Origin: an uncultured Thermotogae bacterium
GTDB taxonomy: Bacteria > Bipolaricaulota > Bipolaricaulia > UBA7950 > UBA9294
Reading direction: 5' to 3'
Assembly (NCBI GenBank): GCA_964523545.1
Contig: CAZFZM010000004.1
Span: 395-64,394 of the forward strand
Length of the DNA: 64,000 bases
The position numbers and the translations under genes were made by a program. Below the pieces are notes generated by a model. That model made no database searches. It was given only the letters and a program-made list of their open reading frames with translations, and was not told the DNA's origin. Each line of letters opens with the position of its first letter. Within the stretch, counting starts at the first letter, position 1. Below, one piece after another: positions 40,058 through 48,806 of the stretch.

Positions 40058-40086
40058 TTGCACGACATGCACTCTTCATGTAAGAT
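40058..40086 (+). promoter_or_regulatory. strong sigma70-like promoter of the Cys-repeat gene
   Basis: TTGCAC-17 nt-TAAGAT in an AT-rich spacer (line 40021-40080 is about 40 percent GC by hand count). GGAGG at 40102-06 follows. Confidence 0.6.
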
Positions 40087-40114
40087 ATAGAATCCATTCG
40101 CGGAGGTGAGTGCC

Positions 40115-40627
40115 GTGCCGAGGAGGAAGCTGCGGTATTGGTGGACCATCGGCCTTGTCGTGTGTGTTATTGGGCTCATCGGAGTGTTCAATGCAATGAG
40201 TTCGGGAGAAGGAGATTCCGAGGAGGCTACTCCGCTGTTCGCAGTGAGAACAGCGGGGGCTACCGATCTGCAGGCCGTGGGTGTTGTGGAGTCCTATGTT
40301 CAGGATGTGGCCTTGCTCGAAGATGGATACGAGTGCTCACTGCAGGGTACGTGCGAAGACATCGAAGTCCATGTGTTAGTTACCGAATTGCCTGGGTGCA
40401 TCACACTGCAGGACACGTGTGACTGCGACACCCAGATCGGACCGACGTGTATGGGATTTCCTACCTGCTCTTCGACATGCCTTCCCACCTGTGGTGTGAC
40501 ATGCATTGAAACGTGTGGGAGCACTTGTCTGACGTGCAGCACCTGTGACACATGCTGGAACACCTGCGAGGCAACCTGCGCAAGTTGCGACCCGCCTTGC
40601 CCGATGTCCACGGGGTTCGGTTGGTAG
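40115..40627 (+). CDS. secreted/membrane-anchored protein with C-terminal (xxTC)n cysteine-repeat region
   Basis: GTG 40115 lies 8 nt after GGAGG; the track start 40106 overlaps the SD. Signal/anchor PRRKLRYWWTIGLVVCVIGLIGVFNA. The C-terminus PTCMGFPTCSSTCLPTCGVTCIETCGSTCLTCSTCDTCWNTCEATCASCDPPCP uses mixed synonymous codons for T and C. Confidence 0.65.
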   Translation: MPRRKLRYWWTIGLVVCVIGLIGVFNAMSSGEGDSEEATPLFAVRTAGATDLQAVGVVESYVQDVALLEDGYECSLQGTCEDIEVHVLVTELPGCITLQDTCDCDTQIGPTCMGFPTCSSTCLPTCGVTCIETCGSTCLTCSTCDTCWNTCEATCASCDPPCPMSTGFGW

Positions 40628-46043: not shown

Positions 46044-46127
46044 CGGGAGGCCAGCAAGTGGAACCACGAACTCGGCGTGGCGACTTGGGTTTGAGGCCGT
46101 CTTTGGACGCTTGAGGAAGGAAGCAAC

Positions 46128-48806
46128 GTGGAATCACAGACTGTGTTGCAGCGATGGGCCTCGCGCGTGGCGCTTCGAGTAGCCGTTGTCGTAGTCGTGT
46201 GTCTGATTGTTGGCCTTGACATGGAACTCTCAGGCAATCTCCTCTGGCAGGAGGAGGCTCCTGAAAGATGCGCTCGACTGCAAGGCCTCGCCGAGGTGTG
46301 GGGGATGGTCTACTACTTTCATCCAGCGTTGCGGGATCCGCAGAAGCAAAAGGCTTGGGAGATGGAGCTTCTCTACGCGATCCCCGCCGTCGAGGCGGCG
46401 GGAACGGTCGAGGAGTACGCGTTGGCGCTTCAAGGGATGATCGCGAAGCTGGGCGACGGCGGTACCACTGTCTTGTTCCCAGGCGAAGTCGATGAGAGCG
46501 GCGAACTCGTTGCCACGGGACTGCCTATCCGGCTTAGTCGGATTGATGGACAAGTGGTAATCTCCGCCATTGACACCTCCGCGCCCAACACGGAGCTGCT
46601 TGCTGTCGGGATGGAGGTCCTTTCTGTCGATGGAGTACTCGTCGAGGACTATCTCTCGAAGTGGCTACCGGTTGCGTCAGGGCGAACGGAGGCGTTGAAG
46701 CGTTCATGGGTTTTCGAGCGGCTCCTTTCGGGGCGACAGGGCAGCGAAGCGACGGTCGTTTTGAGGACGGCTTCAGGCGACGAGTTCAGCGTCGGCCTTG
46801 CTCGGACGAGCCTCGATTGGACCATCCCAGTACCAACCCTAGATGCTGAGCGCGTTGCCGACGGGCGGTTCATACACATTGCGTTGCCGTCACTTCTCTA
46901 CCGAGTTGATACCCGTCTCGCGCTCAGCGAACTGTACGGATTGGCACAACGATTCTACGAATCGGCATCCGAATCGGATTGCGGAGTCATCCTCGACCTC
47001 CGCGCGGGCACCATGGAATTCGGCACGTCCTACTGCGCCGACGTACCTCTACCACTGATTGTTGCGGTATTCGCCGACGATTCACGAACAGTGTCAGCAG
47101 GGTACGGACACCGTACGCACGAAGGTCTGCGGAACCCGATGTATGAGTGGCTCTCCTATTCCTACGGAGAGGATTGGACGGTACGGCAGGGGGTACCACT
47201 CTGGTATGCTTCGCTTTCGGGAGATTCTTCTCCGTTGGTGGTCCTCATTGATGGTGGCAGCTACTCCTCGGTGGTCGAATACCTCGCGCCACTTCAGCGG
47301 GCCGGGCAGGCGGTGGTCGTCGGGGAGACAGGCATTGAGCCGATGCGACAGAGCTATACGGGCCCTCTTCCTGGCGGCCTGGGCTTTCGGTTGCGTCTGT
47401 CTGTTCCCTGGGACAGCGAAGGAGCGGTTCGACTTCCGGTGGTGGAGGTGTCACCGTCGGTCGAGGATCTGCGAAGCGGGCGGGACGTAGCGCTGGAGAC
47501 GGCCGTCGCGATCTTGGACGACTGGGAGAAGAGAGGCGTTCTTTCCCTAACGTCTGCACCACTGATCGGTGAGTCGCTGGTTGAACTCCCTTGGTCTCTG
47601 GGAACCACCTTGGACCATGAAGAACGGCTCCTCGGTCTGTTCAAGCTGTGGAGCGCGATCCGGTACTTCTATCCGTTTCCGGAGATGATCGACGGGAACT
47701 GGGACGATGCCCTCGGGAAATTCATTCCTCGTGTCAACGTTGCGGGCGATGATCGCGCGTACTACTACGAGCTGCAGCACATGCTGGCGCGAATCAACGA
47801 TGGCCATGCACTTCTTGACGCACAACTTCCGGTACAGTACCGGCCGCCGATCGAGATTCGGGAGATCGAGGGGCAGGCCGTGATTACGCGCATCGACCGA
47901 GGTCAGTCTCTCGGCAGCCCCGATCTCGCGAACCTTGAGGTAGGAATGATCATCGTCAGAGTCGACGGGCGTCCCGTCATGGAGCTCATCGCGGAGGGCC
48001 TCGTCCGGATACCTAGTGCAACGGATCAGCATCGACGATACCTTGCCTTCGCCAGACTGTTGACTGGCCAGAGATCGACCGACGTGCGTCTCGAAGTCGC
48101 GAGTTCACCGAATGAGGACAGTCGAACCGTGACCCTCTCTCGGACCCATTTGACTCTATCCAGTGATCCATCACCCGTATCCTGTCGGCTTGAGGGAGGT
48201 GTCGGATTCATCGATTTGGCACGAATCGATAAGGAAGGATTCGAGCAAGCAATCGGCGAATTCAGCTCCTGCGAAGGGCTGGTCCTGGATCTTCGCGGGT
48301 ATCCGTCGTCTGTCGGGATCGGGATGGTACTTGATTACCTCACGGACGATGAGACTTCGATATCCGGGTGGGCTCACGTCCCGGTGGTGTATTCGCCGGA
48401 TCCGCGGAAACGGGGCTGGAAGATGGAGGCCCAGCGACTAGAGCCCGGTTCCATTGACGCCTACGAGGGTGAGGTTGTCATCCTCACCAATGCCTCTGCG
48501 GGCAGCGCTGCGGAGTGGCTTCTGATCTGTCTGGAGAGCACGGCGTGCGTTACGATCGTCGGCGAACCCACGGCGGGCACGACGGGCGACATCACATTCG
48601 TAGAGATCCCTGGTCCAGCGTATGCTGGATTCACGGGAATGAAGGTTCTCCATGGCGACGGGAGTCCGATCCAAGGAATCGGGATCCTTCCGGACGTGGA
48701 GGTCCATCCGACGATCCAAGGGATCCGCGAAGGCCGCGACGAGATCCTCGAAAGGGGACTCGAAGTACTGCAAGAGCTGATCGCGCAGCGGAAGGGCAAC
48801 GACTAG
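46128..48806 (+). CDS. membrane-anchored protease with two tandem S41 (tail-specific/tricorn-core-like) modules
   Basis: N-terminal TM helix. Module 2 has LTNASAGSAAEWL...VGEPTAGTTG...GIGILPDVEV (S41 Ser region). Module 1 has LIDGGSYSSVVEYL...VVGETG. Each is preceded by an S41_N-like segment (WGMVYYFHPAL / WSAIRYFYPFPEM...INDGHA). Confidence 0.8.
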   Translation: MESQTVLQRWASRVALRVAVVVVVCLIVGLDMELSGNLLWQEEAPERCARLQGLAEVWGMVYYFHPALRDPQKQKAWEMELLYAIPAVEAAGTVEEYALALQGMIAKLGDGGTTVLFPGEVDESGELVATGLPIRLSRIDGQVVISAIDTSAPNTELLAVGMEVLSVDGVLVEDYLSKWLPVASGRTEALKRSWVFERLLSGRQGSEATVVLRTASGDEFSVGLARTSLDWTIPVPTLDAERVADGRFIHIALPSLLYRVDTRLALSELYGLAQRFYESASESDCGVILDLRAGTMEFGTSYCADVPLPLIVAVFADDSRTVSAGYGHRTHEGLRNPMYEWLSYSYGEDWTVRQGVPLWYASLSGDSSPLVVLIDGGSYSSVVEYLAPLQRAGQAVVVGETGIEPMRQSYTGPLPGGLGFRLRLSVPWDSEGAVRLPVVEVSPSVEDLRSGRDVALETAVAILDDWEKRGVLSLTSAPLIGESLVELPWSLGTTLDHEERLLGLFKLWSAIRYFYPFPEMIDGNWDDALGKFIPRVNVAGDDRAYYYELQHMLARINDGHALLDAQLPVQYRPPIEIREIEGQAVITRIDRGQSLGSPDLANLEVGMIIVRVDGRPVMELIAEGLVRIPSATDQHRRYLAFARLLTGQRSTDVRLEVASSPNEDSRTVTLSRTHLTLSSDPSPVSCRLEGGVGFIDLARIDKEGFEQAIGEFSSCEGLVLDLRGYPSSVGIGMVLDYLTDDETSISGWAHVPVVYSPDPRKRGWKMEAQRLEPGSIDAYEGEVVILTNASAGSAAEWLLICLESTACVTIVGEPTAGTTGDITFVEIPGPAYAGFTGMKVLHGDGSPIQGIGILPDVEVHPTIQGIREGRDEILERGLEVLQELIAQRKGND

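What the first reader, a model, noticed from the sequence alone, without database searches (positions are those of the whole stretch)
40058..48806. Compositionally distinct four-gene module: secreted (xxTC)n cysteine-repeat protein, two paralogous giant membrane proteins, tandem-S41 protease
All four genes are co-directional. A near-consensus promoter (TTGCAC-17-TAAGAT) in an AT-rich spacer drives a 170-aa signal-peptide protein whose C-terminus is a run of about 14 Thr-Cys dipeptides. An intrinsic terminator follows. Then come two translationally coupled (ATGA overlap) ~860-aa paralogs, each with an ~8-TM N-terminal domain and two GldG/DUF4350-like soluble modules split by a TM pair. Last is an 892-aa membrane-anchored protease made of two S41 modules. 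The block is visibly lower in G+C than its flanks: single-line hand counts give about 0.58 in paralog 2 versus about 0.68 in PFOR. It uses more A/T-ending codons and starts where a neighbouring gene is truncated. I cannot match this gene combination to any described system. A small, highly expressed Cys-rich secreted substrate with membrane machinery and a processing protease is a plausible but unproven reading.
Basis: partly seen in the sequence, partly recalled or inferred. Interest (0 to 1): 0.8.

Follow-up and report, generated by a model that had tools for sequence, protein, structure and literature searches.

The report
Membrane pair servicing SPLF-tagged cysteine-repeat proteins
A strain-variable four-gene island in a Gram-negative bacterium encodes a secreted cysteine-repeat protein and two giant paralogous membrane proteins; in about 160 bacterial and archaeal loci that membrane pair sits beside exported proteins carrying the same short N-terminal 'SPLF' tag, which points to an undescribed envelope system for handling such proteins.

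Summary
The four co-directional genes are real: Cys-repeat protein 40115-40627, P1 40861-43440, P2 43437-46043, double-S41 protease 46128-48806. The block is lower in G+C than its flanks and is not an assembly artefact. Two independent assemblies span both junctions. A relative about 90% identical in the flanking DNA has only an S41 gene at this site, and there the small neighbouring gene truncated in the window is intact.

The host is a diderm bacterium (BamA, PNPase).

The main new result is comparative. P1 followed by P2 is a conserved pair in Thermoplasmatota and many bacterial phyla, with about 900 clusters at E<=1e-30. Exported proteins with a signal peptide followed by an 'SPLF' motif lie within 4 kb of the pair in 105 of 163 loci. 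That is about ten times the rate farther away. In bacteria these partners are mostly TC-rich Cys-repeat proteins with up to 95 Cys.

Cys->P1->P2->S41 recurs in a divergent locus (33-58% identity) in a different genomic context. However, S41 also occurs alone, and the pair usually lacks S41.

No Pfam, NCBIfam, PDB or literature match covers the tag, the repeats or the membrane domain.

Best reading: a tag-guided maturation or assembly platform on the outer face of the cytoplasmic membrane. S41 is a lineage-specific trimming accessory. The chemistry is unknown.

The parts
39629..39871 (-). Remnant (last 80 codons) of a small exported protein gene. It marks the left edge of the island.
   Evidence: The full 138-aa version, with its N-terminal hydrophobic segment, is present in the collinear relative L167. 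Nucleotide identity to L167 stops at window 39853.
39854..48900 (.). Strain-variable island, measured against the closest island-less relative. 39854-46283 has no counterpart there. 46284 to about 48900 (S41) is only about 52-85% identical, against about 90% in the backbone.
   Evidence: blastn and windowed identity against L167. G+C and GC3 are lower here. Independent assemblies L001 and L002 are identical across both edges.
40102..40109 (+). Shine-Dalgarno sequence GGAGGTGA, 5 nt before the GTG start of gene 1.
   Evidence: Read directly from the sequence. The start agrees with the database protein P0001.
40115..40627 (+). Gene 1: 170-aa exported Cys-repeat protein (20 Cys, 14 TC dipeptides).
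   Evidence: Only 6 relatives were found among 5.8 billion proteins, and there is no Pfam or NCBIfam match.
40115..40201 (+). Signal peptide or signal anchor (residues 1-29). It has RRK, a 17-residue hydrophobic core and an invariant Ala27.
   Evidence: Hydrophobic segment 6-33. AF2 predicts a helix at 4-28 with pLDDT above 70. Ala27 is invariant. The cleavage site after residue 29 is my inference from the -3/-1 rule.
40229..40255 (+). The 'SPLF' tag (TPLFAVRTA, residues 39-47).
   Evidence: P40, L41, F42 and R45 are invariant in the family. The same motif occurs in partner proteins next to P1/P2 in 105 of 163 loci.
40415..40588 (+). (x)xTC repeat array (residues 101-158).
   Evidence: Analogous TC arrays occur in bacterial partner proteins.
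40589..40624 (+). Conserved C-terminal tail DPPCPMSTGFGW.
   Evidence: Five of six family members end in CP(E/M)Sxx(F/Y)GW. The L119 copy ends in ...CPMFADPLEMAW. It is a candidate ligand for the S41 PDZ domains; that is inference.
40632..40689 (+). Strong RNA hairpin with a U-rich 3' side, a possible terminator or attenuator after gene 1.
   Evidence: -38 kcal/mol, z=-5.3. Not conserved in L119 or L005. Not listed by the simple terminator scan.
40861..43440 (+). P1: 859-aa polytopic membrane protein. The N-terminal membrane domain is about 300 aa. It is followed by a GIFT/GldG-like module, a TM pair at 584-635 and a DUF4350-like module.
   Evidence: The N-terminal domain is conserved in archaeal and bacterial homologs, so the long gene model is right and the 699-aa NCBI call is too short.
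43437..46043 (+). P2: 868-aa paralog, translationally coupled to P1 by ATGA. It has 9 TM helices with the N-terminus inside, an extracytoplasmic beta-subdomain, a first GIFT module, a TM pair at 560-615 and a second GIFT/DUF4350 module.
46128..48806 (+). Membrane-anchored double-S41 peptidase (892 aa). The TM segment is at residues 9-41. Each half carries a helical, a PDZ-like and an S41 part.

Best explanation
P1 and P2 form a hetero-oligomeric platform in the cytoplasmic membrane. Their conserved parts all face the periplasm. These parts are four GIFT/GldG-like modules and a conserved loop subdomain of the 9-TM domain.

The Cys-repeat protein is exported by Sec. It is recognised through the short 'SPLF' tag, which lies about 10 residues after its signal peptide. 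It is then matured or assembled on this platform. The most likely step is folding or ordering of the TC-repeat array into a disulfide or metal-thiolate ladder, or hand-over to the cell surface.

In this lineage a membrane-anchored double-S41 peptidase has been recruited as a trimming enzyme. It probably docks on the conserved hydrophobic C-terminal tail (...GFGW).

The whole block is a horizontally exchanged island.

What is shown: the gene architecture, the topology, the cross-domain synteny of the pair with tag-bearing proteins, co-variation of tag type with pair type, and the island nature of the block.

What is inferred: physical recognition of the tag, the client (rather than subunit) status of gene 1, the chemical step, and the role of S41.
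For: 1. P1-like immediately followed by P2-like, on the same strand, occurs in nearly all of about 160 loci from Thermoplasmatota and at least 10 bacterial phyla. The family has 896 clusters at E<=1e-30.
2. ORFs with a signal peptide plus xP[LAVI][FY] lie within 4 kb of the pair in 105 of 163 loci: 133 hits in 608k aa scanned. Farther away there are 10 hits in 467k aa, mostly spurious. Of these ORFs, 119 of 125 are on the pair's strand.
3. The tag consensus co-varies with the clade of the pair: SPLFavRtqrs in the archaeal type, SPLF..sL..si..le in the bacterial type, SPLFavRTA in the window clade.
4. Partner proteins behave like clients. There are 1-3 copies per locus. They run from about 150 to 1300 aa. 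Their C-terminal domains vary and include T9SS sorting domains. They also diverge fast: the Cys proteins are 44% and 37% identical where P1 is 91% identical.
5. 77% of bacterial partners have at least 10 Cys, up to 95.
6. By the positive-inside rule applied to a confident AF2 model (pLDDT 85), all conserved soluble parts face outward.
7. Cys->P1->P2->S41 recurs in L119/L145 at 34/33/39/58% identity with unrelated flanks. L005 has S41 next to two Cys genes and P1.
8. The window's S41 allele is about 70% identical in nucleotides to the S41 of the relative whose backbone is about 90% identical. S41 therefore belongs to the variable tract.
9. The conserved hydrophobic C-terminal tail is seen in the family that accompanies S41. 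It is established knowledge for Prc/Tsp and Ctp enzymes that S41 C-terminal processing peptidases select substrates through PDZ binding of non-polar C-termini.
Against: - There is no biochemical or expression evidence.
- GIFT domains have no known enzymatic activity. Their invariant motifs (GGG..GDHT, GD[ST]T) look to me like motifs common to GldG- and IFT52-type GIFT domains. This is a recollection and was not tested here.
- The 9-TM domain has very few invariant polar residues (Q120, T176, R224).
- Archaeal partner proteins carry the tag but have a median of only 3 Cys. Cys repeats are therefore not the universal feature.
- 58 of 163 loci show no tagged ORF. Many of these are short contigs, and variants such as SSAF are missed by the pattern.
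- S41 occurs alone at the same site in L167, L168 and L170. The window's S41 is closer to those copies (66%, 62%) than to the module-linked L119 copy (58%).
- The AF2 model of the Cys protein is uninformative (pLDDT 47).
Confidence: 0.55

Rival explanations
1. Tag-directed sorting enzyme. The 9-TM domains of P1/P2 act like a sortase or exosortase. They cleave at or near the SPLF motif and transfer the protein to a lipid or envelope acceptor. The GIFT modules only hold the substrate.
For: - The polytopic domain has a conserved extracytoplasmic loop subdomain.
- The motif sits at a fixed short distance from a membrane-spanning signal segment. This mirrors the layout of PEP-CTERM-type signals.
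- The fold has no solved relative, so an enzymatic role is not excluded.
Against: - No exosortase, archaeosortase or rhombosortase model is hit, even at E<=10, in 23 P2 and 16 P1 membrane domains. Pfam also gives nothing.
- The domain has no invariant Cys, Ser or His.
- The HGH motif common in archaeal P2 is absent from the window's P2.
Confidence: 0.15
2. Stoichiometric subunit model. The SPLF proteins are permanent partners docked on P1/P2. The complex is a surface- or periplasm-exposed thiol array used for binding metals or sulfide, or for redox buffering.
For: - The Cys density is extreme.
- Many carriers come from sediment or anoxic-habitat MAG lineages such as Thermoplasmatota, Desulfobacterota, Latescibacterota and Anaerolineae.
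- Archaeal partners end in a hydrophobic segment and may stay in the membrane.
Against: - Some partners carry T9SS sorting domains and so leave the periplasm.
- Partner length and copy number vary widely.
- Archaeal partners are not Cys-rich.
Confidence: 0.15
3. Secreted Cys-rich antimicrobial peptide with a processing protease. P1/P2 would serve as an export or immunity device.
For: - Gene 1 is small and has a leader-like N-terminal part.
- It diverges rapidly and is duplicated in L005.
- The block lies on a mobile island. IS110 and IS481-like genes sit next to the L119 copy.
Against: - There is no ABC or C39 exporter, no cytoplasmic modifying enzyme and no small immunity gene.
- The precursor has a Sec signal.
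- Bacterial homologous partners are 300-1300-aa multidomain surface proteins.
Confidence: 0.07
4. No four-gene system. Cys-P1-P2 is a unit, and S41 is a resident housekeeping protease of this bacterial lineage that merely borders a hotspot for insertions.
For: - The double-S41 gene lies between aconitase and PNPase without the module in L167, L168 (three tandem copies) and L170.
- In L167, S41 is also lower in G+C than its flanks without the module being present.
- The gap upstream of S41 holds different cargo in each relative, including a transposase in L170.
Against: - The same order, with S41, occurs in L119/L145 in an unrelated context.
- L005 again has S41 beside the Cys genes.
- The window's S41 allele is part of the divergent tract.
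- The Cys-protein family has a conserved C-terminal tail.
Confidence: 0.35

Closest known systems
GldG, the accessory protein of the GldA/F/G ABC transporter of Bacteroidota gliding motility and T9SS
   Same: P1 and P2 carry ABC_transp_aux/GldG-type and DUF4350 modules above the Pfam cut-offs. These modules are bounded by TM segments and face the periplasm.
   Different: - The TIGR03521 score is 34 against a cut-off of 390.
- Each protein has two modules and is fused to an unrelated 9-TM domain.
- The proteins come as a paralogous pair.
- No ABC permease or ATPase is among the conserved neighbours.
Eukaryotic GIFT-domain scaffolds IFT52 and OST48/DDOST
   Same: They share the domain superfamily. 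IFT52 is the only solved relative by sequence (E=2e-6), and the Pfam IFT52_GIFT model is hit. OST48 is a non-catalytic scaffold in a machine that acts on newly translocated secretory proteins (PMC7226087), which is a useful functional analogy.
   Different: The partners and the membrane domain are entirely different. There is no STT3-like enzyme nearby.
Dedicated sorting systems with a cognate short signal: exosortase/PEP-CTERM, archaeosortase/PGF-CTERM, rhombosortase/GlyGly-CTERM, T9SS/CTD
   Same: The logic is the same. A short conserved motif next to a membrane-spanning segment marks a variable set of exported proteins, and these are encoded beside a polytopic membrane machine.
   Different: - The motif is N-terminal, not C-terminal.
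- There is no sequence-profile similarity to any of those enzymes.
- No catalytic residues are conserved.
S41 C-terminal processing peptidases: Prc/Tsp, CtpA/B, and the Bacteroides S41 structures 4GHN, 4L8K, 8VCB
   Same: The Peptidase_S41 domain scores 69.5 bits against a cut-off of 24. The motif containing the nucleophile Ser aligns with the PDB relatives. PDZ-like and Tricorn_C1-like parts are present.
   Different: - Two complete modules sit in one membrane-anchored chain.
- The family is tiny: 10 clusters at E<=1e-10.
- All NCBIfam equivalog scores are far below their cut-offs.
The DUF4350 / MoxR / vWA 'secretion or membrane-remodelling complex' predicted for arCOG01314 (Makarova et al. 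2015, PMC5898192)
   Same: It also involves a GldG-like DUF4350 domain in envelope proteins of archaea and bacteria, and its function was likewise inferred from gene neighbourhood alone.
   Different: [quoted passage not shown] P1/P2 have 11 TM helices, come as a pair, and have tag-bearing partners with no ATPase or vWA.
Cys-ladder beta-solenoids such as the Tenebrio antifreeze protein (TCT motif, one Cys every 6 residues), and metallothioneins
   Same: They share short-period Thr-Cys repeats. Bacterial partners have period-6 GSSTCx units. This is a resemblance recalled from memory.
   Different: No family test was possible. The window's array has a period of 3-4. The AF2 model is unreliable.

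Membership tests
GldG (TIGR03521) / GldFG-type ABC accessory | Whole-protein score at or above the equivalog cut-off | tested here: not met
   P2 scores 34 bits and P1 scores 12.8 bits, against a cut-off of 389.85.
GldG (TIGR03521) / GldFG-type ABC accessory | ABC_transp_aux / GIFT-type periplasmic domain | tested here: met
   PF09822 scores 40-46 bits (cut-off 34.7). PF14258 scores 45-48 bits (cut-off 30.4). PF23355 scores 45.6 bits in P2.
GldG (TIGR03521) / GldFG-type ABC accessory | Adjacent ABC-2 permease and ATPase genes | tested here: not met
   The called neighbours of the pair carry no ABC families. No ABC cluster is evident among the recurrent neighbour clusters of 80 loci; only some of those clusters were inspected.
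Exosortase / archaeosortase / rhombosortase sorting systems | Membrane enzyme matching the family profiles (TIGR04178 and relatives, PF09721) | tested here: not met
   No such hit appears at E<=10 for 23 P2 and 16 P1 membrane domains, nor at E<=1 in Pfam.
Exosortase / archaeosortase / rhombosortase sorting systems | Invariant catalytic Cys (or Ser) together with Arg and His | tested here: not met
   The invariant residues in the P2 domain are P76, Q120, G152, T176 and R224. The P1 domain has only two near-invariant Gly.
Exosortase / archaeosortase / rhombosortase sorting systems | C-terminal tripartite signal on the clients: motif, TM helix, basic tail | tested here: not met
   The shared motif is N-terminal and follows the signal peptide.
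Peptidase family S41 (C-terminal processing peptidases) | Peptidase_S41 catalytic domain above the curated cut-off | tested here: met
   PF03572 scores 69.5 bits against 24, in two stretches.
Peptidase family S41 (C-terminal processing peptidases) | Nucleophile Ser motif retained | tested here: met
   In the C-terminal half, NASAGSAAE aligns with the Ser motifs of 4GHN and 4L8K. The N-terminal half has GGSYSSVVE at the equivalent place; I read this by eye.
Peptidase family S41 (C-terminal processing peptidases) | PDZ domain for binding the substrate C-terminus | tested here: inconclusive
   PDZ_4 scores 17.9 bits (cut-off 23.1) and PDZ_Tricorn scores 12.3 bits (cut-off 25). PF17816 is precomputed for the homologs.
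Peptidase family S41 (C-terminal processing peptidases) | Membership of a named subfamily (Prc, CtpA/B/C/Z, CPAF) | tested here: not met
   The best score is 46.5 bits against a cut-off of 218.6. All others are lower.
RiPP biosynthetic cluster | Cytoplasmic modifying enzyme next to a leader-core precursor that lacks a Sec signal | tested here: not met
   No such enzyme lies in the block. The precursor has an N-terminal signal segment. The only related hit is TIGR04117 at 15.8 bits (cut-off 50), on one bacterial partner.
T9SS cargo | C-terminal sorting domain (TIGR04183 / PF18962) | tested here: not met
   It is absent from the window protein. It is present in some bacterial partner proteins, L055 and L150.
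arCOG01314-type DUF4350 complex (PMC5898192) | Signal peptide plus a single C-terminal TM, with MoxR-type ATPase and vWA neighbours | tested here: not met
   P1 and P2 are polytopic. No conserved ATPase or vWA neighbour is evident.
Cys-ladder beta-solenoid / metallothionein | Regular disulfide or metal-thiolate core | not testable with these tools
   The AF2 model has pLDDT 46.7 and gives no usable fold.

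The most novel reading that the evidence does not exclude
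This is a previously unrecognised protein-handling system of the cell envelope, shared by bacteria and archaea. An N-terminal 'SPLF' tag directs exported proteins to a heteromeric P1/P2 machine. In bacteria these proteins are mostly giant Thr-Cys repeat proteins. The machine's 9-TM domain has a fold with no solved relative. It matures, cross-links or anchors the tagged proteins. The system would be comparable in standing to the exosortase or T9SS-CTD systems but unrelated to them.
Probability: 0.35. Interest if true: 0.85.

Novelty: categorically new. Interest (0 to 1): 0.72.

Why it matters
If the reading is right, it would give a first functional handle on three things:
- a family of about 900 clusters of 800-900-aa membrane proteins, currently named 'hypothetical', 'DUF4350' or 'GldG family' where a source names them at all;
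- a new sorting or recognition tag that could be used to predict its clients in genomes;
- a large, unexplained class of extracellular Thr-Cys repeat proteins with up to 95 cysteines, many from sediment-dwelling bacteria and from Thermoplasmatota.

These proteins could bear on metal or sulfur chemistry at the cell surface, or on envelope architecture.

The module occurs in both monoderm archaea and diderm bacteria. That places its action at the outer face of the cytoplasmic membrane. Heterologous expression of four genes would make this directly testable.

The window also offers a clean natural experiment, because island-bearing and island-less relatives share about 90% identical flanking DNA.

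Tried and rejected
- Archaeal origin of the window. The first homolog names (Thermoplasmatota) suggested it. It was rejected because the window encodes BamA, PNPase, a SurA/PrsA-like foldase and an HpnN-like RND transporter. In an NJ tree the window clade is separate from both the archaeal and the bacterial clades.
- Assembly chimera. Rejected: L001 and L002 are identical across both junctions.
- Exosortase-like membrane domain. No profile support. My remembered similarity of the hairpin-plus-'xSG' motif remains an untested lead.
- ABC-2 permease fused to GldG. No Pfam hit, and no ABC-type fold among the PDB matches.
- Solved relatives of the membrane domain, by fold and by sequence. Best Foldseek E=0.25 with TM 0.21. 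The hmmsearch found nothing for P2 and only noise for P1.
- Structure of the Cys protein. pLDDT 46.7, unusable, so no fold search was run.
- Metagenome scan seeded with the Cys-protein family. 84 pattern matches, none confirmed by tblastn.
- Known RNA elements and tRNAs as island markers. None in the window.
- Conservation of the hairpin after gene 1. Not conserved.
- Sigma-70 promoter. Not found.
- X361, the putative protease of the archaeal modules. No Pfam or PDB hit.
- Naming the host organism. The clusters carry no names.
- Literature. Four searches found no description of the pair, the tag or the repeats.

Full report
**What is at the coordinates.** Four co-directional ORFs occupy 40.1-48.8 kb.

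- Gene 1 starts at GTG 40115, five bases after GGAGGTGA. It encodes the 170-aa protein held in the databases as P0001. It has a basic N-terminus, a 17-residue hydrophobic core and the motif TPLFAVRTA at residues 39-47. A variable middle part follows, then a C-terminal array with 20 Cys and 14 Thr-Cys dipeptides, ending in DPPCPMSTGFGW.
- P1 (40861-43440, 859 aa) and P2 (43437-46043, 868 aa) overlap by ATGA. They are paralogs: 25% identity, E=1e-17 over the soluble parts. Their membrane domains match at hhalign probability 93.5%, E=2.4e-7.
- Each paralog has a GIFT/GldG-type module (PF09822, PF23355), a TM pair and a DUF4350 module, with PF09822 and PF14258 above their Pfam cut-offs in both proteins. 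Neither approaches the GldG equivalog cut-off (34 against 390).
- The roughly 300-aa N-terminal membrane domains match nothing in Pfam or NCBIfam.
- The fourth gene (46128-48806, 892 aa) has one N-terminal TM segment and two S41 modules. PF03572 scores 69.5 bits in two stretches, and the halves are 29% identical, E=5e-19. Its nearest solved relatives are Bacteroides S41 proteins from structural genomics.

- The promoter TTGCAC-17-TAAGAT matches only 3/6 and 4/6 positions by my count against the scan's consensus. A sigma-70 scan found no site in the region.
- The hairpin after gene 1 is real and strong (-38 kcal/mol, z=-5.3). It is not conserved in the two related modules.
- The membrane domain has nine helices, not about eight.

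**The host and the island.** The first homolog names were archaeal, but the window belongs to a diderm bacterium. It encodes BamA, PNPase, a SurA/PrsA-like foldase, an HpnN-like RND transporter, single-chain PFOR, citrate lyase and aconitase.

- The block is lower in G+C (0.56-0.60 against 0.64-0.69) and in GC3 (0.63-0.67 against 0.73-0.88) than flank genes identified by family matches.
- It is not a chimera. Contigs from two other sequencing runs match window 39005-49041 with 0 mismatches and 39764-49041 with 1 mismatch.
- Contig L167 is a close relative, about 90% identical over 29.8-38.9 kb and 50.3-59.3 kb, with the same gene order. Between aconitase and PNPase it carries only a 138-aa exported protein gene and a double-S41 gene.
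- Against that relative, window 39854-46283 is new sequence. The 138-aa gene is cut down to its last 80 codons (39629-39871, minus strand).
- The S41 gene is only about 52-85% identical in 200-nt windows. Identity returns to about 0.9 just after its stop codon.
- The variable tract therefore runs from 39.85 to about 48.9 kb and includes S41. Both independent contigs end at 49041, as expected at an assembly-graph branch between island-bearing and island-less strains.
- In the second four-gene locus (L119) the module is again lower in G+C than its flank (0.55-0.60 against 0.69). There it is preceded by IS110 and IS481-like transposase genes.

**The comparative result.** P2 has hundreds of full-length relatives at 30-40% identity. 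A profile search of 1.84 billion cluster representatives gives 896 hits at E<=1e-30, nearly all 800-900 aa long.

- Scans of species genomes and metagenomes returned 160 loci from Thermoplasmatota and from Desulfobacterota, Ignavibacteriota, Acidobacteriota, Verrucomicrobiota, Lentisphaerota, Chloroflexota, Bacteroidota, Latescibacterota and others.
- In almost every locus that is long enough, a P1-type gene immediately precedes a P2-type gene on the same strand, usually overlapping it.
- In Thermoplasmatota the pair is followed by one to three proteins of about 220 aa. These have a signal peptide and the motif SPLFAVRTQRS.
- In bacteria the neighbours have a signal peptide, then SPLF..sL..si..le, then long Thr-Cys repeat arrays. 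Examples are GSSTCA and TCDGSxTC units, and in Desulfobacterota PTMNPMDxxC units. They reach 95 Cys and 1300 aa. Some carry T9SS sorting domains, CarboxypepD_reg or Ig-like domains.
- A simple pattern (signal-like segment followed by xP[LAVI][FY]) finds such ORFs within 4 kb of the pair in 105 of 163 loci: 133 hits in 608k residues. Farther away there are 10 mostly spurious hits in 467k residues.
- Of these ORFs, 119 of 125 are on the strand of the pair. The motif consensus differs between the archaeal, bacterial and window clades in step with the pair.
- The window protein combines the archaeal-type tag (SPLFAVRTA) with the Cys-repeat body typical of bacteria.
- None of the tag, the repeats or the small archaeal proteins matches any Pfam or NCBIfam family. 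Four literature searches found no description. The nearest published work concerns a different DUF4350 family linked to MoxR and vWA proteins.

**The four-gene combination.**

- Locus L119 and its overlapping contig L145 have Cys->P1->P2->S41 in the same order. Identities to the window are 34, 33, 39 and 58%, and no flank is shared.
- L005 has the end of an S41 gene, then two Cys-repeat genes, then a P1 that is 91% identical to the window's. Its Cys proteins are only 44% and 37% identical, so the Cys-repeat partners change much faster than P1.
- L006 has P1-P2 at 50% and 58% identity on a short contig.
- The refutation test 'never syntenic elsewhere' therefore fails, and the module is real.
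- S41 is the weakest member. Its family is tiny, with 10 clusters. In L167, L168 (three tandem copies), L169 and L170 it occurs without Cys/P1/P2 within 10 kb.
- The window's S41 is closer to those solitary copies (66%, 62%) than to the L119 copy (58%). More than 150 P1/P2 loci lack S41.
- In favour of a functional link, adjacency recurs in three arrangements and S41 lies within the variable tract. In addition, most members of this Cys-protein family end in the tail ...CP(E/M)Sxx(F/Y)GW. That is the kind of non-polar C-terminus S41 enzymes bind through their PDZ domains, which is established for Prc/Tsp and Ctp enzymes.

**Topology and structure.** An AF2 model of the P2 membrane domain is confident (pLDDT 85, pTM 0.82). 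It shows nine helices and a small three-stranded subdomain carrying the most conserved motif, NNG..FVQT...TWEKLG.

- Loop charges across 33 homologs follow the positive-inside rule. The N-terminus is inside. The conserved subdomain and both GIFT modules are outside.
- The fold has no solved relative. Best Foldseek E=0.25 with TM 0.21, and no sequence-profile hit.
- There is no invariant Cys, Ser or His in the domain.
- The invariant GIFT motifs (GGG..GDHT, GD[ST]T) are shared by P1 and P2. To my recollection they resemble motifs common to GldG- and IFT52-type GIFT domains, so I read them as structural or binding features rather than a catalytic site; that comparison was not tested here.
- The AF2 model of the Cys protein is unreliable apart from its N-terminal helix (pLDDT 47).

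**Interpretation.** The best-supported reading has four steps.

- P1/P2 is a heteromeric platform on the outer face of the cytoplasmic membrane.
- It recognises exported proteins by the SPLF tag, which sits about ten residues past the predicted signal-peptidase site. That site is my inference from the invariant Ala at position -3.
- It matures or assembles them.
- In the window lineage the client is a small TC-repeat protein, and a double-S41 peptidase has been added, probably to trim it.

Client status, rather than fixed-subunit status, is favoured by four observations: variable copy number, variable length, variable C-terminal domains that include T9SS signals, and fast divergence. The chemical step is unknown. 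It could be oxidative folding of a Cys ladder, metal loading, cleavage with anchoring, or glycosylation.

Confidences: about 0.7 that gene 1 is a dedicated partner of P1/P2 through the tag; about 0.45 that S41 acts on it; 0.55 for the statement as a whole.

Rivals:
- a sortase-like enzymatic role of the 9-TM domain;
- a permanent thiol-array complex;
- a bacteriocin-like peptide;
- S41 as an accidental neighbour.

**Novelty.** The soluble domain families (GIFT/GldG, S41) are known. The combination, the tag, the repeat-protein class and the membrane domain are not described in any library or paper I could search. The system fails the defining features of every family considered (see the membership table). 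I therefore rate it categorically new as a system, with the function still inferred.

Noticed in passing
window 38897-39624: About 730 bp are absent from the closest relative L167. The stretch carries an ORF ending at 39532 (+). Its motif 'GSTALGL..RDIDIDVVV' looks like a minimal nucleotidyltransferase. This is my own reading; there is no Pfam or NCBIfam hit. It would be a second small insertion at the same variable site.
   Followed up: partly
L003 14998-16083, and 60-odd other fetched loci (for example L008 9374-10426): In Thermoplasmatota-type loci the tagged small proteins are followed by a conserved exported protein of about 360 aa ('X361'). It has invariant NTHAGY and MATC.A..D.SMA..FL..GA motifs and no Pfam or PDB match. 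The His...Cys pattern recalls clan CD cysteine peptidases (from memory only). If so, these modules also carry a protease, unrelated to S41.
   Followed up: partly
L168 10001-18208: A relative of the host carries three tandem paralogs of the double-S41 gene (884, 876 and 887 aa) at the aconitase-side locus, without P1/P2.
   Followed up: partly
window 49041 (right ends of L001 and L002): Both independent contigs stop at the same base. This is just where identity to the island-less relative returns to about 0.9. It probably marks a branch in the assembly graph caused by co-existing island-bearing and island-less strains.
   Followed up: partly
window 1-8000: A second stretch of the window has low G+C (0.55-0.59). 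It is comparable to the island and was not examined.
   Followed up: no
window 48803-49390 (-) versus 48947-49321 (+) and 49350-49850 (+): The long minus-strand ORF that overlaps the S41 stop codon is probably spurious. By collinearity with L167, the real genes are a 124-aa protein and a glyoxalase-family protein on the plus strand.
   Followed up: partly
L037 4001-7048, L041 3204-6839 (-), L080 5166-8210: Desulfobacterota partner proteins use a different Cys repeat: about 60-90 copies of a 'PTMNPMDxxC' unit of roughly 13-15 residues. They follow the same SPLF-type tag. This suggests the platform serves more than one repeat chemistry.
   Followed up: partly
window 40861 and 46128 (gene starts): The NCBI gene calls for P1 (699 aa) and S41 (833 aa) are shorter than the ORFs and would remove conserved TM segments. 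The N-terminal regions of P1 homologs from L119 and from archaeal and bacterial loci align with the region that the 699-aa call would remove, which supports the long P1 model. The long S41 model (892 aa) is supported only by the lengths of S41 homologs (869-889 aa).
   Followed up: yes
L170 3691-4221; L119 31-1974: IS110-family (Transposase_20) genes lie in the variable gap upstream of S41 in L170. IS110 and IS481-like genes lie directly upstream of the four-gene module in L119. These are possible vehicles for moving the module.
   Followed up: no
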